The notes beneath the pieces were generated by a model. That model saw nothing but the letters and a program-made list of their open reading frames with translations. It was not told the DNA's origin and searched no databases. A stretch of DNA of 64,000 nucleotides, from IMG/VR virus record IMGVR_UViG_3300045988_050969. One strand, written 5' to 3'. Made by a program: the position numbers and the translations under genes. Positions 4,701-29,425 of this stretch are shown here, piece after piece. The first letter of the stretch is position 1. Each line of letters opens with the position of its first letter. This stretch comes from a virus.

Positions 4701-5890
4701 ATACAATCGTGAGTAGTAGGAACACGTTTAATAGCTTCATCATCTGTTATAGACAGACGAATATTATTACTATCTAAACTAGATAACAGCTATACACTTC
4801 CTTCTGAGTTAGCTCTATATGCTCTAGCATCATAGTCATTACCATCTTCATCTTCTGGTATCCAAGTATTCTCTGTTACGTTAGCAGCGAATAATCTATT
4901 TTGCATTTTAGCAAGAGTCTACGCTATAAACTAATAACCAGTCATAGCATTAAACTCATCTATAGATATATCGCTTAATGTAGAACCATAATCTACATAC
5001 TGAATATCTGTTTGACCATCTGGAATATCTATTTCATCTACTATACTAATAACAGGAGTAGAGTTATTCTGTTCATAAAATAGGCGTATTACTCTTAACT
5101 TATTGAAGTCCTAAAGAGATAGCTCAGTAGATAACATTACTGATTTGTTAGATGATTTATTCAAGCCAGTACCTTTATATTCAGAACTACCTTGGCTAGT
5201 TACACTATTTGTTAAGTGAATTAACTCACTCATTGGAGAAGTAACAGTTTCAGTACCATGCACATTAAATAATTGATAACAATATGTTACCATTCCAGCT
5301 TTAAGATTACCTTCAGATAACCAACGGAATTTAAACGGCAATAAACTTACTACTGGAGTTATTTCTAATGAACCAGGATTGATTATATTCCCATTCTCAT
5401 CTATAAGATTAGAATTGTCTATATACTCATTACTCATTATGTTAACAATCTTAATAGGACTGTTTCCATCAGTAAAGTATATCTTTATGTTAGTATCTGA
5501 TTCATAGTTACCTACAATACTTAGTGTGGGATTCTTAGATAAATCTTCACACAACCCTAGAGCTCCTTTACATACTAATTTGATTTGAGGCATATTACTA
5601 TCAAACCCCATTAATCTGTATATCTTATTAATGTTATCAGATGTTTTAGTTATTACTACTGCAATATCATTTATAGTAGTAGTACCTATTATAGTCTCAT
5701 CTTTAGGTATAATAGTATCGTATCTTCTAGGGTTCTCTATACTTTGTAATACTCCTGTAGTTCCTCCATCATTAGTGATAACACGAACATCCTCAGCATA
5801 TCTATACTGAGTATCCGGTATCAAATTTACGTCCTAGTCCATATTAAGACCACCCGTAAATGTATTAACTTGTGCAGTATTACTTATCAT
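1718..5890 (-). CDS. very large (1390 aa) virion/tail protein, TAG-recoded
   Basis: ATG 5890..5888, TAA 1718..1720, 4173 nt = 1391 codons. ORF fragments 5111.., 4076.., 3695.., 3176.. and 1751.. are all in phase and separated only by plus-strand 'cta'. About 19 in-frame TAGs by hand count. Confidence 0.75.
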
Positions 5891-6801
5891 AATCTATTCT
5901 AATTATAAATATTTTGTTCATCTCCACTAGTAGAAAAGAACATACTATGATCATTAATTTCAGGGTATAATTTAGTATAGATATTACTAATAGTTTCTAA
6001 ATCGTCTACAGTGGGCATCATCGCTTCTGCATATGCCTACTTACGATAGAAGTTATAAGAGTTACGTATATCATAGTAATCTCCTTGACTTATCTGACCT
6101 TTTAACTTTTTAGGATACATTAACTTCATAGTAACATACCAGTATATAGCTTCTTTATAAGATTCTAAATCTGGTATCATTGGCATACTATCTTCATCAG
6201 TATATATAGCATAGTAGGATATTTTAACAAATCCTCTAGGCATGCATGTATTAATATAACCAGGTTTAGTAGTATATTGTAATTCATTACTAAACATGGT
6301 GCCATCTCTATGATCTACTACTCCAGGAACAAATTTACCATTTACTGTACCTACTGTCCATTGATTAAGTAATATACTTAATGTTTGCCGTAAGTTAGTG
6401 TCTTCATTTAACTTTTCTAATGCTTCTCTATCAGTATTTAAATTGAACATATTCTTTACTAATGGAAACATTGCAGTATCTGGAATTAACATACAAGGTT
6501 CATTACTGCATTCACGGTCATGGAATACACCAAAACTAGAAGTAGCTTTCCTCATAGGTAACCATCCTCCTCCATTACAGAATGAAAATGCTACTTGACC
6601 TAATTTATATAAATCACAAGGTAAAGCAACCTAATGGCATTCTATTGGTAGTATAGCTACCTTATGCTCATACTATTGTATAGCTCCTATCTTAAGAATG
6701 GCTTCCATGCACCACTCGCGCATATCTGTAATTCGTATATCAGATTCTTGTAATTGCAAATCCGCGATCACTTTAGCAATAACTGTGTTTGAGGATATCA
6801 T
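5887..6801 (-). CDS. hypothetical structural protein (304 aa), TAG-recoded
   Basis: ATG 6801, TGA 5887..5889, 915 nt = 305 codons. Contains fragment 6037..6555 in phase. ATGA-type overlap with the next gene. Confidence 0.65.
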
Positions 6802-6812
6802 TCTATTATTTA

Positions 6813-7274
6813 TCATTTCTCAGGATAATCTCTTAATCGGTTAAAAATCACTTGTGCCAACTCTCTTTTGCAATCTCTACATGCTATAAATTGATATTTA
6901 CCTTTATTAGTTAGTAAGCATCCTTGTTTAGACCAGAAGAATCTGTACTTATAATAATTACTGTGTTCATTAAGTAAGTACACGGGCTTACCAGTTTCTC
7001 TTGTGGCTTTCCAATCCCATCTAAGACTCTTATTATCAAATGATTTAGGTAAATGTTTAATTATACTCAAAGTACCTAACCTACATGGTAACTTTACTTC
7101 TTTACATTCATACATTATTTCGTTTTTAATGTATTTAAAGTAATCAGTAACTATAGCTTTAAAAGTCTTTAAATCTACATCGTACTAAGTATTAGGTTCT
7201 ATGTACTCCTTATAGCTTATATAATAATCGGCAATAGTATAGCACTTTCTCTAATATTTTAATCTCTCTCTCAT
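6813..7274 (-). CDS. hypothetical protein (153 aa), TAG-recoded
   Basis: ATG 7274, TGA 6813..6815, 462 nt. Extends fragment 6813..7115 upstream through two TAGs. ATGA overlap with the upstream gene's stop. Confidence 0.55.
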
Positions 7275-7915
7275 TTATTATTAACTCTATTCTGCGTATC
7301 ATCATGTGCATCATTACTATCATCACTAGGCATAGTAATCATAACAGATAATTCTCTTTGCATTATCATTTGTGTTATTACTGGTATCATTGCAGATGGT
7401 ATAGGAAATTCACTATCTGGATCAAAACAAGCGTTGAGTTCTGTGGGGTCTTCGGCTATTACATCTACGCTGATATACTCTAGCTGATTAGAATCTCCAT
7501 CTACATATATTCTATTGTTTTTAACCCATGCGATGTAATCTTTACATGTAGCCTTTCTATACTTCTATAATTTAGCTTTAGTACGACTACCTATCTAAAT
7601 TATATTACCAAACATATCACGTACATTTATTACTCCAGGTCTATAGTTAAAGTCTATTAACTTAGGGAGTTCTTTATCTCCTACATAAGTAAAGTAACCT
7701 GGTACAGTTTCTTCACGATCTAAGTGGATAGGTTCTATAGTAGTAAGATACATATCATTTATATCTCTGTCTTTATCTATGTCTTGCTTTATTAACATAG
7801 CTCTGTAACCTATAATCCACTTTTCAATTTGTGCTCTACTTAAATGCTCAGACTCTGCAATATTATTATTGCGAGCAATAAGTAGAATATTATCAATTAA
7901 CTAGTTAAGTGTCAT
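7271..7915 (-). CDS. hypothetical structural protein (214 aa), TAG-recoded
   Basis: ATG 7915, TGA 7271..7273, 645 nt. Fragment 7595..7798 is in phase. Confidence 0.6.
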
Positions 7916-8036
7916 ATCTTATTTCTAATAATGTTATAAAGCTTAAAACGCATTTTAAGGCCTTTAGAGACACTTTACGTATTGTAGCTTACAATCCCTT
8001 ACCTTAACTAATAGCGTTTCTTACACGAGCTTAAAA

Positions 8037-8067
8037 CAAAAAAAGGTTGATCTTATTGACCAACCTT
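8037..8067 (-). terminator. rho-independent terminator overlapping the stop of 8053..8616
   Basis: Minus strand reads AAGGTTG-gtcaataagat-CAACCTT followed by TTTTTTTG. Confidence 0.6.
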
Positions 8068-8616
8068 ATCCATTGCATTCTTCATATCCTAAGGAAGCAT
8101 TTCCTTCATAGGTGGTGGCACCATCTAATTAGCTTTCCTTATTATATTTTTTAATTCGTTAACTTCTTTCTATAACTCTATTATCTTATCATTCTCTTTA
8201 GCTGGTTCATTATCTACTCCAAGCTTATCTAACAGAGTCTAACACTTAGCCATTTCTTCATCGCATTTAGCAATGGCTTCTTTTCTTTGTTTGTAAGTAT
8301 TATATTGATTACGTACTATACTTATAATTTCCTATTTATCTGTAGCTATAGTAAGTCCTATAGCATTGTCTGTTATAACTGATTTGTTCTCAGGTATAGT
8401 AAATTTCTTAGTTTCTCCATTACACTAGATAGTTATATCTACTACTTTCTTTCTAGGTTGATTAGGCATAGGAAATTGCCCAGGTGGTAGTGGCTCATCA
8501 TATACTGCACTTACTTGAGTAACAGAACCTTCATTATACTCAGTAGTCTTTTTGAATGTCCCAACCACTTCTATTATATATACTTTATCACCTATATTTA
8601 ATTGATTGAATAACAT
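8053..8616 (-). CDS. hypothetical protein (187 aa), TAG-recoded
   Basis: ATG 8616, TAA 8053..8055, 564 nt. Fragment 8425..8616 continues in phase through TAGs. Confidence 0.55.
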
Positions 8617-8632
8617 AATAAGTTAGTTTTAA

Positions 8633-8651
8633 GGGGCTCATTTAGAGCCCC
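8633..8651 (-). terminator. GC-rich hairpin downstream of 8660..9100
   Basis: GGGGCTC-attta-GAGCCCC, a 7-bp stem. The flanking U-run is weak. Confidence 0.4.
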
Positions 8652-8659
8652 AATTTGTA

Positions 8660-9100
8660 TTAAGCTGCCGGTGTAGCCGGTACTACTATATGATTAATTA
8701 CTTGGAAGATTCCGTCACATTTGTTATAGTATATAAGATATCTGTTACCAGTTGTAATTTCATTATTTGTCATTTGAGCTCCGGAACCATTTAATAGAGC
8801 TTTTGCTCCAGTAGATGTAATAACTGTAGTTGTATTATCAATCTATCTATTAGTAAAGCTAGTAGGATCTAAGAATACTAAATCCGTAGGAGTAGCTGCA
8901 CTAGCAGGAGTAGATGTTACATGCAGTATAAATAAACCTTGGCATGGGAGTTGTCTCCACAGTTTAGGACATATACCATAAGTAACTGAAGTAGTCGTAG
9001 TATCGGTAGTAACATAGTTAGTTCTCAATACTGGAATACCAAAATTATCTACAGTTCTTACTCTACCTCTATTAAAGTAGTTTAAAAAAGGATAAAACAT
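8660..9100 (-). CDS. hypothetical protein (146 aa), one in-frame TAG
   Basis: ATG 9100 is preceded by AGGAGG. TAA 8660..8662, 441 nt. The TAG at 8843 joins the two halves in phase. Confidence 0.5.
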
Positions 9101-9117
9101 AGCTGCCTCCTTTCTTA

Positions 9118-10035
9118 TTAGCAACCGCATCCGCAACCGTTATTATAACCGTAGCCGTAGCCGTAGCCATAATCATTCAAGCCACCCTGACAACCAAAAG
9201 GATTGCAAGTTAAGTAAGCAGGAACAGGACACGGACGAATTTGATTAACGATGTTTGCAGTTTGAGCTTGCTGAGAAGCAGACAATTGTAAAGCTTGTTT
9301 ATCTTCACGCAAAGCATCGATCTTATTCTGCATTTCTCTCATTTCGAGTTGACAGAACTTATCATTGATAATTTGAGTCTGTGCATCTATCTTAGCACCT
9401 ACAATATTAAACTTAGATGCATTATCAGCCATTAAAGAATTGAATCCATTAGTAATAGCGTTCTGCAGTGTGTTAGTCTGATTGCATACAGACAGCTGAT
9501 TTTCATAACCCATCTTAGTGATGTTGTTATTTACACCGCTAATAGATTCTCTAACATTGCAGCAGCAGCTAGCTAACTGAGAAGCCAAGCTTGCATTACC
9601 AGAAGTAATAGCATTAATTACTTCACAGCTAGACAATTTAGTATCGCAAGAAATCTGGCTTACTCCAGAATTGATAGTGTTAAGAGCTGTCTGAACAGAG
9701 TTAATATCACAATTCAAAGTATTAGCCAAGTTATTGATGGCATCTTTATTACCATTAATAGCCTGCATCAACAGATTAGTGTTAGCGTCACTGTTCAGTT
9801 CAGAAGCAAGAGCACCAGCGTTACGTCCGCCGAAACCATTACCACCGAAACCACCCCAGCAGAAGAAGATCAAAATGATCCAAATCCACCACCAACCGCC
9901 GTTTCCACCGAAACCACCGTTGTTCATCATAGCCATCAAAGCAGCCGGATCCATACCTTTATTAGCGTTTTGCATTAGAGCAGCAAGACCAGCGTCAATA
10001 CCGCGATCCTGCACAATAATTCTATCTTCTAACAT
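9118..10035 (-). CDS. Gly/Trp/Cys-rich membrane protein (305 aa)
   Basis: Intact ORF with no TAG. N-terminal GGFGGNGGWWWIWIILIFFCWGGFGGNGFGG segment, a Q/N/S-rich helical middle with many Cys (including CCC), and a C-terminal YGYGYGYGYNNGCGCGC. Visibly higher GC than its neighbours. Confidence 0.7.
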   Translation of the reverse strand: MLEDRIIVQDRGIDAGLAALMQNANKGMDPAALMAMMNNGGFGGNGGWWWIWIILIFFCWGGFGGNGFGGRNAGALASELNSDANTNLLMQAINGNKDAINNLANTLNCDINSVQTALNTINSGVSQISCDTKLSSCEVINAITSGNASLASQLASCCCNVRESISGVNNNITKMGYENQLSVCNQTNTLQNAITNGFNSLMADNASKFNIVGAKIDAQTQIINDKFCQLEMREMQNKIDALREDKQALQLSASQQAQTANIVNQIRPCPVPAYLTCNPFGCQGGLNDYGYGYGYGYNNGCGCGC

Positions 10036-10064
10036 AATTGATTTAATTTAAAAATTGATTTTTA

Positions 10065-10700
10065 TTAATATCTAACGTAGCGAACTGCTTTGCCACGTCC
10101 ATATTCTGAATAAGGTTCGTACTCTTTTTCTCTTTCGAGCATACGTTCATAATCGTCTTCATAGTCTCTAGCTCTGCTAGTAGAATATACTCTACGACCA
10201 CCACGCATCATACCACCTCTTCTACCACCTCTACGGAATAAGCCTATGCGTTCAAATTCGTCGTCATCATCATCTTCGTATTTTTCACGCTTTTCAACTT
10301 CTTCCTCATAGCATTCCATTTCAGCTTGTCTGATCTTATCACACATAACGTAAATATAGTAATACCACATCTTACCTTCATCAATGTCTTTGTCATTGAT
10401 CCAAGCTTTTGCCAATTCAACAAAATGTTTAGTGCTATTAGAATTAGTCATACTTATAATTACCTTATAGTAATCAGAATAAACCATGTTAAGTGCTACG
10501 AACCAATCATAACGATTAAATCTGCTACCCAGATTTATTCCGTATTGACTAGCTAATGCGGTAGTTTCTTCTACAGACCAATGTGGTCCACGAGTACCAT
10601 CCTCATTTTCCATTTTACTTACAGCTTTACGGGCATGTTCCTCATTGAAGTGAGGACCGTGTTCTGCTTCGTAAGCCTTTACACGAAATATTCTATGCAT
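10065..10700 (-). CDS. hypothetical protein with an acidic tract and an RGG-type C-terminus (211 aa)
   Basis: Intact ORF with no TAG. Contains DDDDDEF followed by RRGGRRGGMMRGGRR. Higher GC than neighbours. Confidence 0.7.
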   Translation of the reverse strand: MHRIFRVKAYEAEHGPHFNEEHARKAVSKMENEDGTRGPHWSVEETTALASQYGINLGSRFNRYDWFVALNMVYSDYYKVIISMTNSNSTKHFVELAKAWINDKDIDEGKMWYYYIYVMCDKIRQAEMECYEEEVEKREKYEDDDDDEFERIGLFRRGGRRGGMMRGGRRVYSTSRARDYEDDYERMLEREKEYEPYSEYGRGKAVRYVRY

Positions 10701-10733
10701 ATTATTATTGATTAATATTATTGAATATATTGA

Positions 10734-11375
10734 TTATTGTTTAGGTAACTCGATTACACGAGTATCAGTTACCTTGATTATTGGGTTACTGTTAACTATC
10801 TGATATTTTTTGGTACGTATACGTTTCCAATCAAAGTGCCAGAACCTAACCCAGCCATTCTTATACTTATTACGATATTCTTTCTTTTCTTCTACAAACA
10901 GAATCTGTTGATTCTTAATATCTAATGTGGCTTTAAGGATTGAGTCCTTCCTACTAACTATGATAGTTGTTAATGGATTAATTTTAAGTTCTTCGTCAAA
11001 ATCTATTAACTTGTGTTTTATAATAGTTCTGACTGAATCTTTAATCTCAGTATTGATTACATTTATATTAGTTAGGTTCTTGTCTTTGATTTTGAGCTTT
11101 TTCTAAGCATCCTTGGTTTCTTTTAATAAACTATCATTACTAGTATTTAGTTCTTCTATAGTAAGCTATAACACTCTGTTTAACTATTCTTTCTAGGATG
11201 CTAATTGCTCGTAAGCTCTAACATTGTTAGTTATTCTGTCAATCTCTTTATTCTTCTTTTGTAGCTAATGGTTCTAAACAAAAACAGTCGCAATAAGTAA
11301 ACTAACTAAACCTACTGCGACTGCTCTGAAATTCCTTGTAAACCAATTAACTAACTAATTCAGTATTGGAATCAT
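10734..11375 (-). CDS. spanin-like protein: N-terminal TM anchor plus long coiled coil (213 aa), TAG-recoded
   Basis: ATG 11375 lies inside the 3' end of the holin-like gene. TAA 10734..10736, 642 nt. TM segment AVAVGLVSLLIATVFV is followed by heptad-like K/E/Q/L-rich sequence. Confidence 0.4.
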
Positions 11376-11856
11376 CTGGTAATTCTTTATCTAATGATAT
11401 ATCTAAATATTTCTCTCCTTTTGCTTTTATAACCTTTTTGAGGATTTTCCATATTTTCCATTTAGGATATAAGTCGCTAAATGATTCTAGTAACGACCAA
11501 AACTCAACTAAGGCTATCATTCCTGCTACTATTTCTACAGCGTGCAAGTTAATAGAGGTTACTACCAGCTAATCTATTATTGATGCACTAGTTATTGCTA
11601 CTGCTGCATCTCTAGTCTTCCATATAGTTTTCCATGCTTTATGTGATTCAATCTTAGGATGCCCATATTTTTTAGAGACTTTATAACCATAGATAGCATC
11701 AAGTAGTATCAATATACCGACAGCAGTGATAGGAACCCATACAGGTGCGAATATAGAAAGTAGCCCAGTTATAACAGAAGCTACGCATTTATTCGCACTA
11801 CTGAACATGTTCTTAAATATTGACATAGTATGTTCTCCTAATTGTTGGTAATTCAT
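11347..11856 (-). CDS. holin-like membrane protein (169 aa), one in-frame TAG
   Basis: Fragments 11569..11856 and 11347..11547 are in phase (offset 222 nt) across a TAG. Several hydrophobic helices. The LLDAIYGYKVSKK segment resembles the phage holin-4 family. Confidence 0.5.
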
Positions 11857-11871
11857 AGATAGTAGCTGATA

Positions 11872-11925
11872 ATAAAAATCAAATAAGCCCTGACAGATTA
11901 AAAGGGGAGTAAAATCTGAGAGGGC
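11872..11925 (-). terminator. terminator-like hairpin after the RT gene
   Basis: GCCCT..CAGATT / AATCTG..AGGGC imperfect hairpin, followed on the minus strand by TTATTTGATTTTTATT. Confidence 0.5.
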
Positions 11926-11970
11926 TCGAAATTCCGTTTGAGATTATAATTATATAACGATAAGGTTTAT

Positions 11971-12993
11971 TTAAGGTTTCCGTTTTGAAAATCTTCTTGC
12001 ATAAACTAATAGCTCTTTATAGCGTAATATTTTCTTTAGTAAGTTGATGCCATTACAATGTTTAAGCCAACCTATATGACTACACATTTCTTGTTTGTAA
12101 TCTTCTACTGTAATGTTTTTCTTTCTGCCTAATCTAGCAGCTTTCCTACACATGCTACGCTTAATATTTTTTCTTACTAAAGTATAGTCATGCCTTATTA
12201 CATAACCTACAAAAGATATACCTCTGTCTTCTACTTTAAATATCTAATAGTTATCTTTGAAAGTTAATTTTAAAGTATCTAAATACTATTTCATTTCTTC
12301 AAACAGTTCTCGTAAATACTCTTTATCCTTATGTAGTATTACTATATCATCTGCATATCTGAAGTAATATTTAACCTATTTATCTTCTTTAAGCCAGTGG
12401 TCAAAGTAAGTAAGATACAGATTAGCAAAGAACTAAGATAAGTAATTACCAATAGGTACACCTTCTGCTGAATCTATTATCTCATCTAATAGCTATAATA
12501 ACTTCTAATCCTTTATCTTCTTTCTTATTATGCTCTTTAATACTTCATGGTCTATACTAGGATAGAACTTTCTGATATCTAACTTAAGACAATAAGTAGT
12601 ATTATCTACATCTTTTAAAGCTTCTTTAACATTATGTAATGCTTCGTGAATACCTCTGTGTTTAATGCAACTATAAGTATCTTTAATAAAGATAGATACC
12701 CATATAGGTTCCATTATATTCATTACAGCATGATGTACTATTCTATCTGGATAATAAGGTAATCTAAATATTAATCTTTCTTTAGGTTCTCTAATTATAA
12801 ATGTATTATATTCAGAAGTTTTATACGTACCGTTAATTAAATTCTGCTATAGTTTTTTAAGTAATTCTTCTTTATTCTAGTCAAACTCTTTGATATCTTT
12901 TCTACTAGATTTATTTCTTCTAGCTTTCTTATCTGCTAAATATAAATTGTCTAAGCTAACAATCTTATCGAATAAATTATTATATCTCTTCAT
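11971..12993 (-). CDS. DGR reverse transcriptase (340 aa) with 8 in-frame TAG codons
   Basis: ATG 12993, TAA 11971..11973, 1023 nt = 341 codons. Fragments 12505..12723 and 11971..12153 are in phase. Motifs: KLDIRKFYPSIDH, IGNYLS[TAG] (the I/LGxxxSQ DGR hallmark, TAG at 12433..12435) and YADD at 12346..12357. Confidence 0.9.
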
Positions 12994-13132
12994 AAATAAT
13001 ATTTTCTGAAATACCTTCACGCATCTTCACTTTCGTTACCAATGCGTTCAAGAAGCATGTCATATTTTACCAAGAGGTAAGGTTCAGCCCTTGATTTTTT
13101 GTCAGTTTATAATTTTTTTTACGTATTTCAGT

Positions 13133-13226
13133 GTCCTGACATTAGCATTGGAATTGTCTAACTCATTGTTAGAATTCAAATTGAACAAACCTGCATTAGA
13201 CTCATTGTCTGAGTTACTGCTGATTT
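13133..13226 (-). repeat. DGR template repeat (TR)
   Basis: 94 nt, 70/94 identical to 13371..13464. All 24 mismatches are plus-strand T, which is A on the coding strand, in this copy. Read in the VR frame it is rich in AAT/AAC codons. It lies 30 nt after the target stop and 139 nt before the RT start. Confidence 0.88.
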
Positions 13227-13255
13227 ACTCACGACTGCAACCTTTTATTGGTTAA

Positions 13256-15817
13256 TTAAAACCAGTTTTCTTCAGATTCTATAGAATCCAATTGTTCATA
13301 ATCCTCATCATTTAACTCTAATGTAGCTGGAGCAGCTGGCAATGCCGGTTCACCATAGAAGGTAATTCGAGTCCCGACACCAGCATCGGAATGGCCCAAC
13401 CCAGAGTTAGAATCCAAAGAGAACAAACCCGCAGTAGACCCATTGCCCGAGCAACCGCCGATCAGAAGCGTCCTAGGTGTAGCTGTAGCACTAGTCCAGT
13501 GATAATCACAATAATAAGTTGTAGCACTAGCTCCATTTCCTACTACAGTTGGGAATAGATCTGCCTAATTATTATTAACGAGTTTTTTTACATATTGACC
13601 AGTAATTGTACTTTCTTTAAAGTCTTGTAATTCATAACCTGCTGCAATTAATTGCTCTGCAGTAGGATTAGTTCCTCCTTCAAATGTACCAAACTTAGTA
13701 TAATCTTTGCAGATGTATACACTATTATCAGTACCAGCAACTACTACATCAATTACATTCTTCCACACATGACCAAATGGATTCTCAATACCACGGTATC
13801 TAGGAACATTAACTACCTTAGTACCAGTAGACGTACCCTCTGCATTAGTATTAGTATGTGTATATTCGATTATACCAGTACCATTACCTAATGAATTAGT
13901 AGTACCGCAAGGTACAAATGAATAAGTAGTAGCTCCATTTACAGTTACAGTTCCTGAAGTTACTCCATCACCCAAACCACCTTGATGATAACCTTCTGCA
14001 GTTAAATTAGCATTAAATGCTTTCTGACTATTCAATGTAGCATATTCTACTACGAATAACCAAGTAAGGTCTCTGTGAGCATCATAAGTATAAATATTCC
14101 AGTTGTTAGTTCTATTGTTATTTCTAGCCATAGTCTGGAATTCTGTTCTAGTTTTGCTTATTATAGGAGCAGTATTACGAACTTGAGTTCTTAATGAATT
14201 ATTATGACTTGAACTATCTAGATTTACACTTCCCTCGTATGCACCGATATATTTCTTCTCTACTTTAGTGTAACCAGGAAGATTGTATTCACTCATACGG
14301 ATTTCAACTGTATTATCTGGAGTAGCTATAAGTAATCTATAATGTTCTGGAATTTCTACAAAAGCTTCTACACCAACCCCACTACTATCTTGAGATGAGG
14401 TAGTACCGTCTTCCCACTTAGTCCAGTCGTTTGCTTTTAAGTATTTCTTAGTATTATCCGTATTGCTGATAGTACACCCTCTCATCTTACTCTGGATAGG
14501 AAGTGTTTTATGCATTTCCATATTACCAGTACGTACACCATCAGGACTAGAGCTATTAGCTAAGTCAAACTTAACTCCATACCACAGTTCATTTTCATTT
14601 CTACTAAGCTTACCAATCTCTTCATCAAGAGTAACAGCTGCACTTATAGCACTAGGACTATCAGCTAAGTAATTAGTACTTGATAAGTCAGGCATTTCAT
14701 TAGCTTCAGTTAAACCTACCTTATCATTTACTTTAAGTATAGTACTTCTAAGCTCTGTAATATCTTGATTTAAAGCTGTCTCTAAACTGTCAATATTGCC
14801 TTGAAGTTCTGTATCCTTAGCTTTGAGTTCTTTCACTGCATTCTCTCTTGCAACCTTTTCATCATTAATTGCATCAGGAAGAGTTTCATTAATGGCTAAC
14901 TTTTCAGCACCAGTCATTAAACCAGCAACAGTATTAGTAGCAGGAGTAATAGTAATATTAGATAAAGTAGACTGTACATATTTACCGCCGCTCTTTTCTA
15001 CTCCAGTAAGACTGATAGTAATGTTATTAACATCTGTCTGATCTAACTGGAATGTACTTAATAAATTATCTGGCATAGAGTTAACTACATTCTCCATAGC
15101 TTTACCCTTACCGCCATCATAAGCAGTACCAGTAATATCGCCAATGATAATGGCATTAGAATCAATGTGTACCCATTGTGAACCAGACCATCTAAATTGA
15201 TAGCTTACTTCACCAGGAGTTACATTAACATATATTTTATCTCTTTCACCTACTATAGGAGTTTCGTGTTCAGCATCTGCATATAACTGTATATTCTAAA
15301 GTACTCCAGTAGGAGATACAGTATAAGTAGCATATGCATCCATCACATCATCAACATATGAAGGCAATTGACTAGCAGGTACTTTACCATTACCATCAAG
15401 TTCAGCAAGACCATTAGGTTGACCTTTTAATGCTTTGAAGTCCTGTAAGTCTTCATTCACATCATCAATCTTAGTATCCAGTCTATCTACTTGAGCTTTT
15501 ACAGCAGCATCACCTTTATTAATAGCATCTACTATACTAGTACCTTTAAAGTAGTTATTACTACTATTATCAGGTAAAGATATAATATCACTATTCTTAT
15601 CATAGTTTAAACCAACAGATTGTACAATCTCTTTAATATGAGTCCATTGGTCTACATTAGCATCTCTGTTTAACGGTATCCACTTCTTAAGATCAGGACT
15701 ATATGACTTAATAACATTACCAGTACTATCTGTTGCTAAGTCAATCCAGTAAGAAACCTCTTTAGGATTTGGAGCATACTTAGATGCTATGAAATTAGGA
15801 TTTTCTTGTTTAACCAT
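13256..15817 (-). CDS. DGR target: tail-fibre protein (853 aa) with a C-type-lectin-like variable tip, TAG-recoded
   Basis: ATG 15817, TAA 13256..13258, 2562 nt = 854 codons. Joins fragments 15296..15817 and 13565..15097 with the VR-containing tail across TAGs at 15296 and 13565. C-terminal sequence: YYCDYHW...LLIGGCSGNGSTAGLFSLDSNSGLGHSDAGVGTRITF. Confidence 0.85.
13371..13464 (-). repeat. DGR variable repeat (VR) inside the target gene
   Basis: Partner of the TR. Differs only where the TR has A on the coding strand (24 of the 34 TR adenines are substituted). Confidence 0.88.
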
Positions 15818-15915
15818 ATTTGCAAATATTTAATAATTAAATAATCTCCTGTTCTGGAGTATCGTATTCTTTCTATCTCGTATATTCATCATTGAAATAT
15901 ACAATATTGTTTTCA

Positions 15916-17010
15916 TTATGTTATTGGATTTAATGCTACAACTTGACCAGCTTCAGTCTTATCAAAGTAATTAACTACAGCAAATTCCTCATCTGCTGCC
16001 TAACCGTCTCTACTGCTTACATAACTCCTAATAAACTGCTGACCTCTCTTTTCACTATTACCTGCTACGTATCCGTATCGAAATGCAGTATCTATAGTAG
16101 GATGATATATGGTTCCGTCTTCATTCATAGCGATTACTTTAATCTATCCTTCTTCAGCCATAGTATTAGTATTAAGACACCTAACAGAACCTGTTATTAT
16201 ATTCCCATCTATGTTTGTCTAATTATTCCATGTCTTATACTACTTACCGTTGAATGTAACATAACCATTAACCGAAGTACTTAAAGTGCCTTTAAACGTA
16301 AAATCTCTTTGTATAGTTAGATTGGGCATACCTTCCACACTATCGTCTACAGGATTAATTTTATAATATCTATTAGTATTTGTTCCATCCACGTGTATGA
16401 CCGTTTCTCCAACCCATATTTTATTAGGCATACCTTCTTCATACACCCAACCATCTTTATCAGCGAATACAAATGATTGACCTGTTACTCCCATATCACT
16501 ACCCTTCATTTGATACGCTTTTACTATAACTCCTCCTTTATAAGCAGTACATTCAACAGTCACAATACCGTCATTTTTATTTCCAAACCAGTTTCCTCTA
16601 AGCTATACAATTAACTATTCCGGCATAGTTAAACTAGGATCATTAGTATATACATCTTGTATGGATTTAATGTCTACCATTACACACTCTGCTCCAGATT
16701 GAGTGTTATCGCCTCCCCAGTATAAAAACGGTTGAGTTCTATTTTCAGACGAACCCCAATTCCATCCTACTATTTCACTAGGGATACTAGGAGCGTTAGT
16801 GATGTTAGTACCGGTATCAAAATCTCTACCGTTAGAATCAGTCCATATGAATCTCAACTATATACTATTGAAATCATAGAAGTAAGCTACATCATCCCTA
16901 GTAGGCCATATGTGACTCTAACCATCAAATACATCAGATATATTAGTATTGCCTACGGTTCTCTTTTGTAGGGGAACTGCTCGTCCCCCTGCTATACCTA
17001 ACTCTAACAT
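15916..17010 (-). CDS. hypothetical tail-associated protein (364 aa), TAG-recoded
   Basis: ATG 17010 (TAATG overlap), TAA 15916..15918, 1095 nt. Fragments 16615.. and 16240.. are in phase. Confidence 0.6.
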
Positions 17011-17630
17011 TATTCACTCTCCTCATCAATAATATTATAAGTCATACCTGCTACTTTAGTAAGCTGATTATATTCAGCTTCAGTACCAGTCCATATAGGT
17101 AATGATATCTTACCATTATTAGCACTAGGTAACGCTAAAACAACGCCAGTACCTTTGTTCATTGCCTGTTGTACTGGATCTAATACAGATATCTTATTCT
17201 CACGAATCAGTTTATTTATTAACTGAGTAATGTACTCTTCATCAAGCAGCTCACCAACATTACCAAGATTATTTTCAATACTAGTAATCTTATTGTTAAT
17301 GCTAGTTATGTTCTGCTCAATATCATTTATACTAGATTCAAGATTAGTAATTCTATTATTAACAGTAGTTATCTTACTATCTAAGTTATTTATCTTATTA
17401 GTAAGTTCTGATATACTTTGGTTAACTTCATTCTTGAAATCCCCTACTGAAGATTCTATAGTAGCATCTATATAGTCTTTAATTCTATCATCATTAATTA
17501 CTAAATCAACAATCTAGTTTATAGGAGCTTTATAGTTATGTTCCTTTTCAGCTACAACCATGTATTCACTACCTTCAAGATTGCGCTTAGGATCTAGCTC
17601 CAATATCTTTATGCCATCACATTTATTCAT
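17010..17630 (-). CDS. fibre-associated coiled-coil protein (206 aa), TAG-recoded
   Basis: ATG 17630, TAA 17010..17012, 621 nt. N-terminus MNKCDGIKILELD...GSEYMVVAEKEHNYKAP is paralogous to the N-terminus of 25385..28669. Confidence 0.6.
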
Positions 17631-17635
17631 AACTA

Positions 17636-18541
17636 TTACTCTTTAAAGAATCCACTAGGAGCACTTACTTTATTAAATACTACACTATCAGTAGTAGCTA
17701 ATGATAATTGAGCTCTAGTAACTACATGAGGATTATCTCTTCTAGCTGCATGGGTATCAATAGCATTTTGTGCATTAGTAATCAATTGTTTAAGCTCATT
17801 AATTTGGGATTGCAGATTATTATCTGCATTAGTTCTATTTTCAATCTCTTGATTAATTAACTCAGTAAGATCGGTAACTTTACTATCTACGTAAGTCTTA
17901 AGTTCATTCTTAGCCTTAGTAATCTCACTATTTATATAGCTTCTTAAATCACCAATCTATTGGTCTATTTTACTATCTAACTCTTGTATATTCTGAGTTA
18001 ATTCAGTAATCTTTTGTTGAATAGAACTTAAATCCCCACCTATTACTTCAGTTATATCTTGACGTATCTCTTCAATATTAGAATTGATATTAGTAATATC
18101 TTGATTTATATCATCAATGTTATTATTGATATCTGTAATATCCTACTTGATATTATTAACATCACCTTTGATGTCATTAATCTCATTTCTAATATTACTA
18201 ATCTAAGTAGTTAACTCTTCTACTTTCTGATTAATATACTACCACAGTTTATTAACTTCCTCTTTCAGTTCATCTTTAAATTCAGCTAATTCATTTCTGA
18301 TTTCAGTTATAGCTTCATTAATAAACTGTTCTATCTAATCAAGAGCTCTATTAATATAATCAATGATAGCATCTACTTGCTTATCATTCAGATCTAGCAT
18401 CTCCCATGTATTAGTATCATTACGATAATACCTAATACAACCACCATAGTAATTAGATGTAACGTCAATCCAATAATCTACTTCTAGAGGATTAGGCTAC
18501 GTATCTGATGCTCTAAATCTAACTATCTCTCTCTGTAACAT
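17636..18541 (-). CDS. coiled-coil tail-fibre protein (301 aa), TAG-recoded
   Basis: ATG 18541, TAA 17636..17638, 906 nt. N-terminus ...PNPLEVDYWIDV... is paralogous to the N-terminus of the DGR target. Long N/I/D/E heptad region. Confidence 0.6.
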
Positions 18542-18544
18542 ATA

Positions 18545-18988
18545 TTATGCTTTAAATGTTGTTATTTTGTCTTCTGTACCATCATCATATACATCGATAT
18601 GAACCCAGTTACACTATTCCTCTAAACGTACTTTACATGGCAACAATAAAGGTTTAGCCTTTATTATCTCTCTTATTTCTTCTGCAGTCTTATCGTCACA
18701 AGTAAAATCAATGGCGTTACCTGTAATGTGAGCACTAACATATACTCCTTTCTTACTCTTTACTAAAGGGCACAGGTTACAACGCATACCTCTTTGATGC
18801 ATATTACCAATATTAATATGCATTGGCATTCGTAAAATATCAGTACGTAGACATAGTAATACATGTAGTAACTAAGTACTTAAGAACATCCACGACTATT
18901 CTCCAAATCTACTATATATGTGATTACATACTAATTCCTTTACGTTAAAGTAAGGCTTAAGCTGTTTAATTATTTCTTCTCTCGGCAT
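18545..18988 (-). CDS. endolysin, peptidase M15 (VanY / D-Ala-D-Ala carboxypeptidase-like) family (147 aa), TAG-recoded
   Basis: ATG 18988, TAA 18545..18547, 444 nt. Zn-ligand-type motifs SAHITGNAIDF and WVHIDV. Fragment 18614..18829 is in phase. Confidence 0.7.
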
Positions 18989-19157
18989 CATTGTTATTTG
19001 CAATTAGAGCCTCACCAACTAGATTGGCTGCTACGTTCATACCAAATTGTTTAGTATCGTTATCTATCTCACTTACCTTCACGTTGATTTGAAGGAGCAG
19101 AAGATATATCTGCTCCAACAATTCTCTATCTGTCATATGTGCTAAGTATGGATTCAT
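18966..19157 (-). CDS. small hypothetical protein (63 aa)
   Basis: Intact ORF. TAATG overlap with the upstream gene's stop. Ends TAA. Confidence 0.4.
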   Translation of the reverse strand: MNPYLAHMTDRELLEQIYLLLLQINVKVSEIDNDTKQFGMNVAANLVGEALIANNNDAERRNN

Positions 19158-21427
19158 TATCTTACAAATATTACTGTAGCTGTTATTTCTTTGTATGAAG
19201 GGAATGTTCTAGTTATAGTAGCCTATACTTCCTGATACGAAGAGGTAGTGTCACTTATTGTTATAGTAGTCTGACCTGCACTTCCGCTAGTTGGAGATAC
19301 AGTACTATAGTTAGTACCTTGTCCAATACGTGCTGTCCACGGTGAGGAACTATTTACTACTGCAGTAGCACTATTGCCACTGACCGTCTAACTAGAAGGT
19401 GTTACTGTAAATGTATCAGTTACCCCCCCCTAGCCCGCCGCTTGAGTTACTGTAACAATACCTTTACTTTTTCCTCCTACTTGTGTAAGAGTAAATGTAG
19501 CACTTCTCTATGAAGTTGTTATATTAGAAGTTATAACTATGCCAGTAGTATTAGTAGTATTACCATAACAAGTAAACCATTTAGAGTCGGTAGAGAATGT
19601 ATAATCTACAGATTCTTCAGTTTCACTACCATCGGAGTGTAGTACTGTTTTGTAAGAATCAACGCTAAAATTAACATTCTATGCTGAACTAGATACATGT
19701 ATAGAAGAAGGAGAAATTCTCATTCCATGTGTAGGAATATATTCCTGTTGATATATATTAATATAACATTTTAAACCAGATTCGCCCTAGGTCAATGTAA
19801 TAGTACCCTGTCTAGGTAAACCACTTGTATTATGCGCTACAGTGTAACCACCATTACTATCAACTGTTATCCAGCTTACGTTAGCCGAGAAGCTCACATT
19901 ATCAAAAAATACTCCATTCTTCCTACTTACATAAGTATAATCTCCTGACCAGTTAGTAGTCTTTGCTGGTACGTTATTAAACGTAATGCTCTCATATGAG
20001 GATGTTTCACCAGATTTTCTGACTCCTAAATAGTATTCATCTGTAGCTTTAGCATCCTGACTAACATTAACAGTAAGCGTTTTACCAGAACCGCTCTGAG
20101 TTAATACTACTTCTCCACTTCTTGCAGATCCGCTATTATCAGATGCACTGATAGTCACTTTACTACTAGTAGTAGAAGTAGTTATCCAGCTAGGTTTACT
20201 AGACACACTCCAAGATTGACTACTACCATTCTTAGTAGATATTACAGGTATATTAGCAGCAGTTCCATTAGCAGAAAAATCCCACGGGAAGCTTGCGCTA
20301 ACATCTGAGGTACTACCATCTTCCCAAGTAAATACATAATTATCTGCAGGTGGTACGTAACCACTTTGTGATATTGTAGCATAATCTCTCTTACCAGATT
20401 CTTCCTATGTAAAGTATACATTTGCAGATCTAGAAGATGTAGATGAGTTAGAACTTATAGTAAATCTACCATTACTATATGTTGCCCACGAAGGTAATGT
20501 ACTACTATCTATACTATATCCTAAACTGATCTGATTACCATTTACCAACTTATATGAAGTAAAGCCTATATCTCCTGTACCACCACTAGCTCCAACATTA
20601 ACTTGCCATGGACTAATTGTAAATACATACTCAATAGTAGGTTCAGCACCAGCTTGAGTAACTGTACAAGTAGCTGACTTACCACTATAAGATGCAGTAA
20701 TAGTTGCAGTTCTACTAGATGTAGATGTATTCTCTCCCAATGTTAAAGTACTAGGTGAAGAAGTACTGCTAAGACTACCTAAGTTAGTAGACAGTGTAGG
20801 ATTGCCTGTTTCTTCAGTAACATCTCCACTAACCCAATATACAGTTCTCTTAGCACTAGCTGTAATACGTGAAGTACCACCATCACTAGATACACTGGTA
20901 GGATTAGCTGATACAGATATAGTCCATTCTCCATATGAGCTAATAGTATCTCCACTCTGTGATAGACTAATAGTAGCTGTCTTATTAGACTCATTCTGAG
21001 TTATAGTAACTGTACCTGTTCTATTTGAAGTGATTTCATTAGCAGAAGCACTTACTGTAGTTCCACTTAAAGAGAACCCACTACCAGATATAGTAGTAGA
21101 CTTTAGAGATACATTAGTATTACCGCTCTATTCTACTCCATCTAATACCTTTCTCTTATAAGAACTAACAGTGAAAGATTTACTACCACCACCAGCTCCA
21201 AATGACATGCTAGTAGGAGATACTGTCAAATAGTAATTCCAAGTCTCTACCTTCTTACGTATATCATCTATCTTTACACATTCGTTAGCTCCATAAGTAG
21301 AAGCATTATCAATAACGATTAATGAATTAATAGCTAAAATCTAGGTCTTAGTAGGACATTCTGTCCCACTCTTACCTAGACTAAGCTTACTTAATATCAT
21401 AGAATATGTTGCTATTTCATTACTCAT
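19157..21427 (-). CDS. BACON/Ig-like repeat protein (756 aa), TAG-recoded
   Basis: ATG 21427, TAA 19157..19159, 2271 nt. About 6 repeats of roughly 90 aa, each ending in the pattern ...R[ST]A.[IV]T.....G.....V.[VI].Q.G (for example SRTATITASYSGKSATCTVTQAG and ARSGEVVLTQSGSGKTLTVNVSQ). Confidence 0.7.
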
Positions 21428-24400: not shown

Positions 24401-24986
24401 CACAAGGAGTAGCATTCTATCTGAAAGTGATGCCATTAGTTACTAAGTCATAAGTAGATGTATTAGTACCATCTTTAAACTTAATATTAGTTAATGCTAA
24501 ATTACCTATATATACGTACTGTCCATTGTCTGTAAGTACTTTAGTACCATCTCCAGTAGTCTTAATTACTGTAGTAGTATATTGTTCTTTACTATAGTTT
24601 AATGAACCATCTACAGTAATAGTATCAAATACTACTTGAGATATATTATCTGTACCTTCTTCTTTAATAAAATCAGGAGATTCAATGTATATAGTACCAC
24701 CAACTATAGCTACTTCAGTTGCTAAGTCTAATCCATTTCTACTAGAATTAATAGTATAGATAAGCTTACCTTCCTCTATAGCTTGCTTTAATGCGTCATA
24801 ATCTTCTTGACTTACTTTACCATCAACGATAGTAGGATCAAAGATATACATAGTCATATCTTTAAACTCTATCATTCGAATCTTACCATTTCTTTCACCA
24901 TCTTGGAATGGAATCATTTCCTATCCTGTGACAGCAGTACGTTCTGAAGCTTGACTAATCTTTAAACCTTTAATTCTTGCTATCAT
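21420..24986 (-). CDS. tail fibre (1188 aa) with a C-terminal intramolecular-chaperone (peptidase S74) domain, TAG-recoded
   Basis: ATG 24986, TAA 21420..21422, 3567 nt = 1189 codons. Four ORF fragments are in phase. C-terminus SDARLKSDIKPL...IGTIA[TAG]NLEELGFEDIV... followed by a coiled coil. Also contains the GQPGGLAELDSTGKVPAAQLPSYVDDV fibre motif. Confidence 0.8.
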
Positions 24987-25374
24987 TGTCAATCAAATTA
25001 TTTTCTTTCTACTATTCTAACAGTACTACACCGTTATCTTCCCATAACCAAGGATCTGCATCCTCTGTTAACAATGCTAATACATAAGGATCATACAATC
25101 CTCTAAAGTATCCATTACCACAACCACACTTAATACAATACGGTTTGAGTTTCATAGGTATACCGCTATATAATTGTGGTTTAACCTAATGTAAGTATCT
25201 CTTTAGTATTTCAGAATCTATAGGAGTAGTAACACTAGATGTATTACTAAACTCCAATAAATCTGTTAACTCATTGTATACTATGGTTGCTACAACATCT
25301 CTATTGTTCCTAAGTATATTAGTTTTAAGTATAGAGTTTGTTTTACTGTTTATATATTCTTTTGCTTTATCCAT
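24970..25374 (-). CDS. hypothetical protein (134 aa), TAG-recoded, contains a TAG-TAG tandem
   Basis: ATG 25374, TAA 24970..24972, 405 nt. TAGs at 25186 and at 25012..25014 plus 25009..25011. Overlaps the next gene's start by 17 nt. Confidence 0.45.
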
Positions 25375-25384
25375 AGTAGTTTAA

Positions 25385-28669: not shown

Positions 28670-28680
28670 ATCTATTTATT

Positions 28681-29379: not shown

Positions 29380-29389
29380 ATATCAACAA

Positions 29390-29425
29390 TAAAAAAAGTG
29401 GAGAGTGGAATATTCCACAACTCCA
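29390..29425 (-). terminator. strong rho-independent terminator after 29481..30455
   Basis: Minus strand GTGGAGTTGTGGAATATTCCACTCTCCAC followed by TTTTTTT. Confidence 0.75.

What the first reader, a model, noticed from the sequence alone, without database searches (positions are those of the whole stretch)
11971..12993. The DGR reverse transcriptase is itself gated by the code switch
The 340-aa RT contains 8 in-frame TAGs by my translation, including the one inside the catalytically relevant I/LGxxxSQ motif. The DGR target gene carries two more, at 15296 and 13565. Under the standard code the RT would terminate after 38 codons. Mutagenic retrohoming can therefore happen only in cells where the suppressor tRNA is active, which presumably means late infection.

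This couples tropism diversification to the recoding timer. I am not aware of this coupling being discussed explicitly.
Basis: inference. Interest (0 to 1): 0.8.

Follow-up and report, generated by a model that had tools for sequence, protein, structure and literature searches.

The report
Amber-recoded DGR reverse transcriptase in crAss-like phage
The reverse transcriptase that diversifies this gut phage's tail protein does contain eight in-frame TAG codons, but so do about 85% of its late genes, and the feature is already annotated and published, so it is an ordinary consequence of a known genome-wide code change rather than a special switch.

Summary
Observation confirmed. The minus-strand ORF 12993..11971 encodes a 340-aa DGR reverse transcriptase with eight in-frame TAGs, the first at codon 39 and one at the Q of the IGxxxSQ motif. 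The target gene has two more TAGs at the stated coordinates.

The window is a crAss-like phage (Suoliviridae, Blohavirus), about 97% identical to RefSeq cr53_1, where this RT is already annotated full length. It lies in a TAG-to-Gln recoded late block: 27 of 32 genes carry TAG, and a tRNA(CUA) sits at the head of the block. The DGR is active: against cr53_1 the TR is identical and all 16 VR differences fall on TR adenines.

The RT depends on suppression, but not specially. Its TAG density (2.35/100 codons) is within the late-gene range (third of 32; pooled over six lineages 39 observed vs 29.8 expected, P=0.06). In 80 IMG/VR relatives, RT TAG content tracks flank recoding: 34/34 recoded, 0 internal TAGs in 46 unrecoded. 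Unrecoded relatives keep the RT in the same tail-lysis module.

"Recoded RT" with multiple in-frame TAGs was reported by Lou et al. 2023 and for Zeta crAss phages in 2025. The explicit "timer coupling" was not stated in the papers I could read, but it follows directly from the published late-gene recoding model. Low interest.

The parts
11971..12993 (-). DGR reverse transcriptase CDS, 340 aa, 8 in-frame TAG (read as Gln), TAA stop
   Evidence: Searches give the translation and codon positions. Pfam RVT_1 2e-19. PHROG RT 1e-123. Best PDB hit is BPP-1 Brt 8ub7, E=7e-45 over residues 2-310. 97% identical to cr53_1 gp70 'Reverse transcriptase'.
12877..12879 (-). First in-frame TAG (codon 39); a standard-code product would be 38 aa
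   Evidence: The other TAG codons are at 12847-12849, 12505-12507, 12493-12495, 12376-12378, 12286-12288 and 12244-12246.
12433..12435 (-). TAG at codon 187, the Q of the DGR-type IGxxxSQ motif
   Evidence: The column is invariant Q. It is encoded by TAG in 5 of 9 RefSeq-level relatives and in 23 of 34 recoded IMG/VR RTs, and by CAA/CAG in the rest. It aligns with the Q of TSQ in Brt.
12994..13132 (-). 139-nt spacer between TR and the RT start codon (presumed part of the DGR RNA)
   Evidence: Position only. The role is inferred by analogy with BPP-1.
13133..13224 (-). Template repeat (TR), 92 nt, 32 adenines
   Evidence: 100% identical in cr53_1.
13371..13462 (-). Variable repeat (VR) in the 3' end of the tail protein gene
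   Evidence: 22 mismatches to the TR, all 22 at TR adenines (hypergeometric P 7e-14). It differs from the cr53_1 VR at 16 sites, all 16 at TR adenines (P 2e-9).
13256..15817 (-). DGR target gene, 853-aa tail protein, 2 in-frame TAG (15296-15298, 13565-13567)
   Evidence: PHROG tail protein 1e-84. The RefSeq homologue is annotated 'tail protein; similar to sulfatase, major tropism determinant'.
11347..11856 (-). Holin immediately downstream of the RT (1 TAG)
   Evidence: Pfam Phage_holin_4_1 1.7e-6. cr53_1 gp69 is annotated 'holin'.
10734..11375 (-). LysB-like lysis regulatory protein, 7 TAG in 213 codons (TAG-richest neighbour)
43407..43479 (-). Suppressor tRNA with anticodon CUA, at the head of the recoded block just upstream of terminase
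   Evidence: ARAGORN. Rfam tRNA 37.7 bits. The homologue in cr53_1 is annotated tRNA-Gln, and ARAGORN finds anticodon CTA.
1718..43129 (-). TAG-recoded late block (terminase, portal, major head, tail, DGR, lysis, virion proteins): 150 TAG in 13,104 codons; 27 of 32 genes have at least one TAG
   Evidence: Gene names come from the cr53_1 annotation.
43756..49719 (-). Co-oriented, essentially TAG-free genes upstream of the tRNA
50008..62364 (+). Divergent early block with no in-frame TAG in any called ORF

Best explanation
This is a conventional, currently active diversity-generating retroelement. It consists of a Brt-like RT, a 92-nt TR, and a VR at the 3' end of a tail-protein gene, with no adjacent Avd. 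It sits between the tail genes and the lysis cassette of a Blohavirus-like crAss phage. The whole late block of this phage is written in genetic code 15 (TAG = Gln).

The eight TAGs in the RT are ordinary Gln codons of that block. They are decoded by the phage tRNA(CUA) encoded at the head of the block. RT synthesis, and therefore mutagenic retrohoming, does require suppression. That requirement is shared with about 85% of late genes, including the target, holin, terminase and portal. It arises from block-wide, drifting recoding, not from a design specific to the RT.

Shown: the anatomy, TAG = Gln at conserved columns, recent DGR activity, and that RT TAG content tracks flank recoding. Inferred: a standard-code host, Gln charging of the tRNA, and late timing.
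For: The RT has 8 TAGs and no TAA/TGA. Best PDB hit is BPP-1 Brt, E=7e-45. TR/VR mismatches are 22 of 22 at TR adenines.

Between the window and cr53_1 the TR is identical, the RT differs at 4 of 1023 nt and keeps the same 8 TAGs, and the VR differs at 16 sites, all at TR adenines. So the TAG-containing RT works in vivo.

TAG aligns with invariant or conserved Q at four columns. The SQ-motif Q toggles between TAG (23) and CAA/CAG (11) among 34 recoded RTs.

The tRNA(CUA) lies directly upstream of terminase. The late block has 150 TAGs in 13,104 codons with 27 of 32 genes affected, and the early block has none.

Among 80 IMG/VR relatives, all 34 with recoded flanks have 3-9 TAGs in the RT, and all 46 with standard-code flanks have no internal TAG.

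Literature: recoding of late and lysis genes in crAss-like phages; recoded RTs whose VRs mutated over 3 years and largely stopped changing after an RT deletion.
Against: In this lineage the RT is somewhat TAG-rich. It has 2.35 TAG per 100 codons against 1.11 for the rest of the block. It has the highest TAG share of Gln codons in the block, 8 of 10 against 0.28 pooled. The RT exceeds its flank in 13 of 14 close IMG/VR relatives, with a ratio of 1.5. These genomes are not independent, and only 10 Gln codons are involved, but a lineage-specific selective component is not excluded. Timing of tRNA and RT expression was not measured, and promoter/terminator scans were uninformative.
Confidence: 0.85

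Rival explanations
1. The TAGs in the RT are a selected gate that confines mutagenic retrohoming to the period after the suppressor tRNA becomes active. Tropism diversification would then be coupled to a recoding timer as a distinct regulatory layer.
For: There are eight TAGs, the first at codon 39, so leaky expression gives a 38-aa peptide. The RT has the highest TAG share of Gln codons in the block and about twice the block density. The RT/flank ratio is 1.5 in the Blohavirus-like lineage. The RT adjoins the lysis cassette, the class that Borges et al. found preferentially recoded.
Against: The RT is not an outlier: third of 32, P=0.038 uncorrected. No enrichment appears in five other RefSeq relatives (P 0.08-0.89; pooled P=0.06), and the ratio is only 1.1-1.2 in two other IMG/VR lineages. 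TAG positions are gained and lost among RTs at least 94% identical, and the first TAG ranges from codon 10 to codon 163. Unrecoded relatives keep an intact DGR in the same late module. The tRNA sits at the head of the same co-oriented block, so the 'timer' may simply be late transcription.
Confidence: 0.12
2. TAG acts as a low-efficiency codon that sets the level of a protein rather than its timing. Eight suppression events in series would keep RT abundance very low, while abundant virion proteins avoid TAG.
For: The major head protein has 1 TAG in 487 codons. Several other late genes have none, and the DGR target has 2 in 853. The RT, the LysB-like gene and small genes reach 2.2-3.3 per 100 codons. 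Borges et al. frame recoding as an extreme form of codon-based regulation.
Against: Expression levels are only inferred from gene names. Portal and terminase also carry 8-13 TAGs. In cr6_1 and cr7_1 the target gene is TAG-rich, with 11 and 14 TAGs. Suppression efficiency is unknown. Relaxed selection on lowly expressed genes would give the same pattern.
Confidence: 0.15
3. The host itself reads TAG as Gln, or supplies the suppressor, so TAG imposes no gate at all.
For: The host of this phage is unknown. Yutin et al. mention host suppressors as a possibility where no phage tRNA is found.
Against: The phage carries its own tRNA(CUA). The early block of about 20 ORFs and most middle ORFs avoid TAG completely, which would be unnecessary in a TAG=Gln host. 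The literature predicts standard-code Bacteroidetes hosts, with Bacteroides vulgatus predicted for one of three similar code-15 phages with recoded RTs.
Confidence: 0.04
4. The RT is a decayed pseudogene and the TAGs are genuine nonsense mutations, so the DGR is a fossil.
For: Under code 11 the ORF is broken eight times.
Against: There is no TAA or TGA in 340 codons (P about 3e-10). The catalytic YADD and SQ motifs are intact. TAG aligns with conserved Q. VR differences from a near-identical genome occur only at TR adenines while the TR is unchanged. 34 of 34 recoded relatives keep full-length frames.
Confidence: 0.01

Closest known systems
CrAssphage cr53_1 (NC_055889.1; Suoliviridae, Loutivirinae, Blohavirus americanus), gp70 Reverse transcriptase / gp71 tail protein / gp69 holin
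   Same: 96.9% nucleotide identity over 11300-16000. The RT is 97% identical at protein level, with the same 8 TAGs and the same TR. Gene order is the same and a tRNA(CUA) lies upstream of terminase. RefSeq already annotates the RT across its TAGs.
   Different: The VR differs at 16 adenine-templated sites. The head module (terminase/portal) is only 80-83% identical, and the cr53_1 terminase region is about 1.1 kb longer.
Code-15 'recoded persister' gut phages I57/I79/I123_PsAC1 (Lou et al., bioRxiv 10.1101/2023.08.07.552389)
   Same: These are lytic TAG-recoded phages of about 99.6 kb. [quoted passage not shown] The RT sequence printed in that paper is clearly homologous to this one by eye (MKRYNNLFDK...IGNYLSQFFANLY...). 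The VR was observed mutating in vivo.
   Different: They are different strains. That paper links DGRs to persistence, not to timing of expression. Its RT sequence was not aligned to this one with a tool.
Zeta crAss-like phage DGRs (PMC12386605)
   Same: DGR RT plus tail-fibre target, mostly without Avd, with a GxxxSQ motif. [quoted passage not shown]
   Different: A different crAss family with genomes of about 145-190 kb. Recoding of the RT is treated there as an annotation obstacle.
Bordetella phage BPP-1 DGR (brt-avd-TR-mtd)
   Same: The RT is homologous over its full length (E=7e-45 to PDB 8ub7, which is 100% BPP-1 brt). Both show adenine-specific TR-to-VR mutagenesis and have the VR at the 3' end of a tail/receptor-binding gene.
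   Different: BPP-1 uses the standard code and has Avd between the target and the TR. Here there is no Avd ORF in the 262-nt gap, the gene is recoded, and the phage is a strictly lytic crAss-like podovirus-type phage.
Late/lysis-gene stop-codon recoding model (Yutin 2021, PMC7886860; Borges 2021 preprint 10.1101/2021.08.26.457843)
   Same: Early genes and the suppressor tRNA are in the standard code, while structural and lysis genes carry in-frame TAG. The model is that alternatively coded products can only be made after the code switch.
   Different: Those papers do not mention DGRs or RTs. The present case simply adds the DGR RT to the list of gated late genes.

Membership tests
Diversity-generating retroelement (DGR) | Reverse transcriptase of the DGR clade with the I/LGxxxSQ motif and YxDD | tested here: met
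   IGNYLS(TAG=Q) and YADD are present. The best solved-structure hit is BPP-1 Brt, E=7e-45 over the full length. Scores are below the NCBIfam cut-offs for group II intron RT, Drt3a, Drt2 and retron RT.
Diversity-generating retroelement (DGR) | TR/VR near-repeat whose mismatches fall on TR adenines | tested here: met
   92-nt pair with 22 of 22 mismatches at TR adenines (P 7e-14).
Diversity-generating retroelement (DGR) | VR at the 3' end of a target gene, TR next to the RT | tested here: met
   The VR is at 13462..13371 and ends 112 nt before the target stop. The TR is 139 nt upstream of the RT start.
Diversity-generating retroelement (DGR) | Evidence of ongoing mutagenic retrohoming | tested here: met
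   Window versus cr53_1: the TR is identical and the VR differs at 16 sites, all at TR adenines.
Diversity-generating retroelement (DGR) | Target variable domain with a C-type lectin (Mtd-like) fold | not tested
   Sequence search of the C-terminal 288 aa against PDB found nothing, and NCBIfam found nothing. Support is limited to a PHROG 'tail protein' hit and the RefSeq note 'similar to ... major tropism determinant'. No structure prediction was run.
Diversity-generating retroelement (DGR) | Accessory protein Avd adjacent to TR/RT (typical but not universal) | tested here: not met
   The 262 nt between the target stop and the RT start hold only the TR. The flanking genes are a holin and a 364-aa protein of unknown function. 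PMC12386605 reports that only two of the Zeta crAss-like phages carry Avd genes. The rest of the window was not scanned exhaustively for Avd.
Genetic code 15 (TAG=Gln) recoded crAss-like phage | In-frame TAG in conserved genes whose frames lack TAA/TGA | tested here: met
   27 of 32 late genes carry TAG, 150 TAGs in total. Coding coverage rises from 42.7 to 67.4 kb of ORFs of at least 100 aa when TAG is read as sense.
Genetic code 15 (TAG=Gln) recoded crAss-like phage | TAG aligns with conserved Gln in homologues | tested here: met
   Four RT columns show it, including the invariant SQ-motif Q.
Genetic code 15 (TAG=Gln) recoded crAss-like phage | Phage-encoded suppressor tRNA(CUA) | tested here: met
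   43407-43479, minus strand. It is conserved in position in cr53_1 and cr7_1.
Genetic code 15 (TAG=Gln) recoded crAss-like phage | Early/replication genes compatible with the standard code | tested here: met
   No in-frame TAG in any + strand ORF from 50008 to 62364, and most ORFs in 43756-49719 are TAG-free.
Genetic code 15 (TAG=Gln) recoded crAss-like phage | Host uses the standard code; Gln actually inserted at TAG | not testable with these tools
   Literature only: standard-code Bacteroidetes hosts are predicted, and metaproteomics supports TAG=Gln in other crAss-like phages (PMC9523058, as summarised).
Crassvirales, Suoliviridae, Blohavirus | Genome-level similarity to classified members | tested here: met
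   96.9% identity over 4.7 kb to cr53_1 (Blohavirus americanus) and 98.5% to cr115_1. The head module is only 80-83% identical, so species assignment is open.

The most novel reading that the evidence does not exclude
In the Blohavirus-like lineage the RT's excess of TAG is selected. The excess is 8 of 10 Gln codons and about 1.5-2 times the block density. Serial suppression would make RT output a steep function of suppressor-tRNA activity, so cDNA synthesis and retrohoming would be restricted in time or amount to the end of infection.

A related, equally untested twist is that code 15 widens what DGR mutagenesis can tolerate. In cr6_1 an in-frame TAG inside the VR sits opposite a TR AAA codon. 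That would be a nonsense outcome under the standard code and is Gln here.
Probability: 0.12. Interest if true: 0.5.

Novelty: already known. Interest (0 to 1): 0.2.

Why it matters
If TAG gating of the RT were a selected control, it would be the first example of a phage tying targeted hypermutation of its receptor-binding protein to a switch in genetic code. It would also suggest that uncontrolled RT activity is costly.

As it stands, the result matters mostly in practice. DGR finders and gene callers run under code 11 will fragment these RTs and miss DGRs in recoded crAss-like phages, as already noted in PMC12386605. The data also give clean comparative evidence that a TAG-laden RT is functional in vivo. 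That adds an independent line of support for TAG=Gln decoding in Suoliviridae.

Tried and rejected
- Sigma-70 promoter and intrinsic-terminator scans around the DGR and around the tRNA gave counts no better than shuffles. No terminators were found in 11000-16200, so they say nothing about transcription units.
- I looked for a theta/HDV-like ribozyme or other Rfam family next to the suppressor tRNA and found none. The 267-nt tRNA-terminase spacer folds with a z-score of only -1.4.
- A PDB sequence search and NCBIfam search of the target C-terminus gave no hit, so the C-type lectin fold was not confirmed.
- NCBIfam has no DGR-specific RT model. The RT scores below the cut-offs of group II intron, Drt3a, Drt2 and retron models.
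- I tested whether code 15 relaxes the 'no-stop' design of TRs, meaning AAG/AAA codons that can mutate to TAG. Such codons are rare in both the 38 recoded and the 40 standard-code relatives, and the window's TR has none. The single anecdote is cr6_1.
- TAG share of Gln codons looks striking (z=4.1 pooled). I discounted it because the RT is Gln-poor, many TAGs sit at non-conserved K/E/D columns, genes are overdispersed and lineages are not independent.
- The final Borges et al. paper is not held, so the preprint was used instead.

Full report
**1. What is there**

The finding's coordinates hold a minus-strand ORF, 12993..11971. It has 340 sense codons and ends in TAA. In-frame TAGs lie at codons 39, 49, 163, 167, 187, 206, 236 and 250, and there is no internal TAA or TGA. 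On this strand TAA+TGA make up 6.2% of trinucleotides, so 340 codons free of both has a probability of about 3e-10.

With TAG read as Gln the product matches Pfam RVT_1 (2e-19) and the PHROG reverse-transcriptase family (1e-123). Its best solved-structure relative is PDB 8ub7 chain A (E=7e-45, residues 2-310). That chain is 100% identical to brt of Bordetella phage BPP-1 over the 126 residues I checked. The TAG at codon 187 pairs with the Q of the TSQ motif of Brt.

**2. The DGR**

A 92-nt template repeat (13224..13133, minus strand) lies 139 nt upstream of the RT start. Its variable copy (13462..13371) lies in the 3' end of the 853-aa tail-protein gene 15817..13256. All 22 mismatches are at TR adenines (P 7e-14).

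The TR codons that contain adenine are AAY, AGY, GAC, GAG, TCA, GCA, TTA and AGG. None of these can mutate to a stop in any code. There is no Avd ORF in the 262-nt gap between target and RT. The gene after the RT is a holin (Pfam 1.7e-6), followed by a LysB-like gene.

**3. Identity of the genome**

Region 11300-16000 is 96.9% identical to RefSeq NC_055889.1, CrAssphage cr53_1 (Crassvirales; Suoliviridae; Loutivirinae; Blohavirus). It is 98.5% identical to cr115_1 over the part that record covers.

RefSeq annotates the orthologous 1023-nt CDS as 'Reverse transcriptase' (gp70). It is flanked by 'tail protein; similar to sulfatase, major tropism determinant' (gp71) and 'holin' (gp69). The annotators therefore already read through the TAGs. 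The head module is only 80-83% identical to cr53_1, so the window is a mosaic relative rather than the same strain.

**4. The code switch**

With TAG read as sense, the minus-strand genes from 43129 down to 1718 become long ORFs. By homology with cr53_1 these are terminase, portal, major head protein, tail genes, the DGR, the lysis genes and the large virion proteins. Together they hold 150 TAGs in 13,104 codons (1.14 per 100), and 27 of 32 genes have at least one.

The + strand block 50008-62364 has no in-frame TAG in any ORF. The co-oriented genes 43756-49719 are almost entirely TAG-free.

A tRNA with anticodon CUA lies at 43407-43479 (minus strand), directly upstream of terminase, at the head of the recoded block. 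The same arrangement is seen in cr53_1, where it is annotated tRNA-Gln, and in cr7_1. This is the architecture described for crAss-like phages by Yutin et al. and Borges et al..

**5. TAG means Gln, and the recoded RT works**

Nine Suoliviridae RTs were aligned. TAG alternates with CAA/CAG at four conserved Q columns, including the invariant SQ-motif Q. Among 34 recoded IMG/VR RTs that Q is TAG in 23 and CAA/CAG in 11.

The window and cr53_1 have an identical TR, and RT genes that differ at 4 of 1023 nt and carry the same eight TAGs. Their VRs differ at 16 positions, all 16 at TR adenines (P 2e-9). The DGR has therefore been active since these genomes diverged, which a truncated 38-aa product could not achieve.

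No second RT exists in the window. The complete cr53_1 genome also has only one (one place in the record).

**6. Is the RT specially gated?**

- **In the window.** The RT has 2.35 TAG per 100 codons against 1.11 for the rest of the block. It ranks third of 32, with a binomial P of 0.038 uncorrected. The LysB-like gene (3.29) and the 8053-8616 ORF (3.21) are higher.
- **TAG share of Gln codons.** This is the highest in the block (8 of 10). It rests on ten codons in a Gln-poor protein, and several TAGs sit at variable K/E/D columns.
- **Five other RefSeq Suoliviridae.** Using annotated CDS, the RT is never significantly above its late-block background (P 0.08-0.89; ranks 9/22, 7/25, 12/29, 4/12, 5/6). 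Pooled over six lineages it is 39 observed vs 29.8 expected, P=0.06.
- **80 IMG/VR loci encoding RTs 57-97% identical.** RT TAG content tracks the recoding state of the flanks. All 34 loci with recoded flanks (about 1.0-1.8 TAG per 100, apart from one short contig with sparse flank data) have 3-9 TAGs in the RT. All 46 with standard-code flanks have no internal TAG.
- **RT/flank ratio.** It is 1.5 in the Blohavirus-like group, and 1.1 and 1.2 in two other groups.
- **TAG positions.** They are gained and lost among RTs at least 94% identical. The first TAG ranges from codon 10 to codon 163.
- **Unrecoded relatives.** The standard-code relatives cr55_1 and cr50_1 have TAG-free RTs with intact adenine-mismatched TR/VR pairs in the same tail-holin module. 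In total, 40 standard-code and 38 recoded relatives have such TR/VR pairs.

The RT's position in the late/lysis module is therefore ancestral and independent of recoding. Its TAGs follow the block.

**7. Mechanism**

*Shown.* The RT frame needs TAG read-through. A phage tRNA(CUA) is available. The DGR is active.

*Inferred from the literature.* The host uses the standard code. The tRNA is charged with Gln by a host enzyme. Late products are made only after the tRNA appears.

On this model retrohoming is indeed impossible before suppression is established. The same holds for capsid, tail, packaging and lysis functions, so there is nothing RT-specific. The tRNA is co-oriented with, and immediately upstream of, the late block. 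The 'recoding timer' may therefore not be separable from late transcription itself; I could not test this.

A secondary possibility is that eight serial suppression events keep RT levels low. The major head protein has 1 TAG in 487 codons and several other late genes have none. That is consistent either with such tuning or with relaxed selection on weakly expressed genes.

**8. Prior knowledge**

- Lou et al. (bioRxiv 10.1101/2023.08.07.552389) describe three code-15 gut phages of about 99.6 kb. [quoted passage not shown] They call it a 'recoded RT', show VR change over three years, and show that the VR remained largely unchanged after a 502-nt RT deletion. The RT sequence they print is plainly homologous to this one by eye; I did not align it with a tool.
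- Yutin 2021 and the Borges preprint do not mention DGRs.
- The large virome catalogues treat DGRs and recoding separately.
- I found no paper that spells out the timing argument. It is, however, a one-step corollary of the published late-gene recoding model.

**9. Verdict**

It is unsupported in its strong form of a dedicated coupling, and it is not new as an observation. The novelty class is 'already known' and the interest is low (0.2). A residual possibility of about 0.12 remains that the modest TAG excess in this lineage's RT is selected.

Noticed in passing
window 51210-57154 (+): Dense cluster of Rfam-level structured RNAs in the TAG-free early region: RAGATH-6 (51210-51360), RAGATH-7 (51417-51640), three Hatchet ribozymes (52604-52715, 52814-52937, 55119-55266), RAGATH-9 (56687-56867) and a permuted tmRNA (56899-57154; ARAGORN 56853-57245). 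There is also a tRNA-Leu(UAA) at 53461-53545. cr7_1 also has an annotated tmRNA.
   Followed up: no
window 43150-43401 (-): The roughly 250-nt non-coding stretch between the suppressor tRNA and terminase is 91% identical to cr53_1. The flanking terminase and portal coding DNA is only 80-83% identical. No Rfam family matches, including HDV-like/theta ribozymes, and the fold z-score is -1.4. A G+C-rich hairpin (GGGGTTCGTTGTGAAACGCGCCCC, about 43148-43180) sits just before the terminase start.
   Followed up: partly
window 38000-44000 vs NC_055889.1 6000-13500: The window is a mosaic relative to cr53_1. The DGR/lysis region is 97-99.6% identical but the head module only 80-83%. The cr53_1 terminase region is about 1.1 kb longer, possibly from an intron, intein or endonuclease insertion.
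   Followed up: no
window 13256-15817 (-); L002, L003, L005, L006, L007: The DGR target gene is markedly TAG-poor here (2 in 853 codons) and in Buchavirus relatives (0-2 in 413). It is TAG-rich in cr6_1 (11 in 595) and cr7_1 (14 in 705). Target genes may be exchanged or evolve under different constraints from the RT.
   Followed up: partly
L006 (cr6_1, NC_055894.1) 1840-1842: An in-frame TAG codon lies inside the VR, opposite a TR AAA codon. This is a DGR outcome that would be nonsense under the standard code but is Gln under code 15 (frame confirmed). Stop-capable TR codons are otherwise rare in both recoded and standard-code relatives.
   Followed up: partly
window 43407-43479 (-): The tRNA(CUA) shows about 80% identity to a stretch (presumably a tRNA) in a 735-kb uncultured phage record (LR756501/LR756503). 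This hints that suppressor tRNAs are shared between crAss-like phages and very large gut phages.
   Followed up: no
window 12994-13255: There is no Avd-like ORF between the target gene and the RT; the gap holds only the TR and a spacer. cr55_1 and cr50_1 have an ORF of about 111-114 aa overlapping the RT 3' end that might be an accessory gene. It was not analysed.
   Followed up: no
window 9118-10035 (-): This TAG-free late ORF has a Gly/Trp-rich N-terminal segment and a C-terminal ...GYGYGYGYNNGCGCGC tail. It is annotated 'spike protein/glycoprotein' in cr53_1. It is one of five late genes with no TAG.
   Followed up: no
L044 (IMGVR_UViG_3300030943_000465): On this short contig the RT has no TAG, but two small neighbouring ORFs carry 8 TAGs in 317 codons. 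The sample is too small to interpret. It could be a recombinant or an ORF-calling artefact.
   Followed up: no
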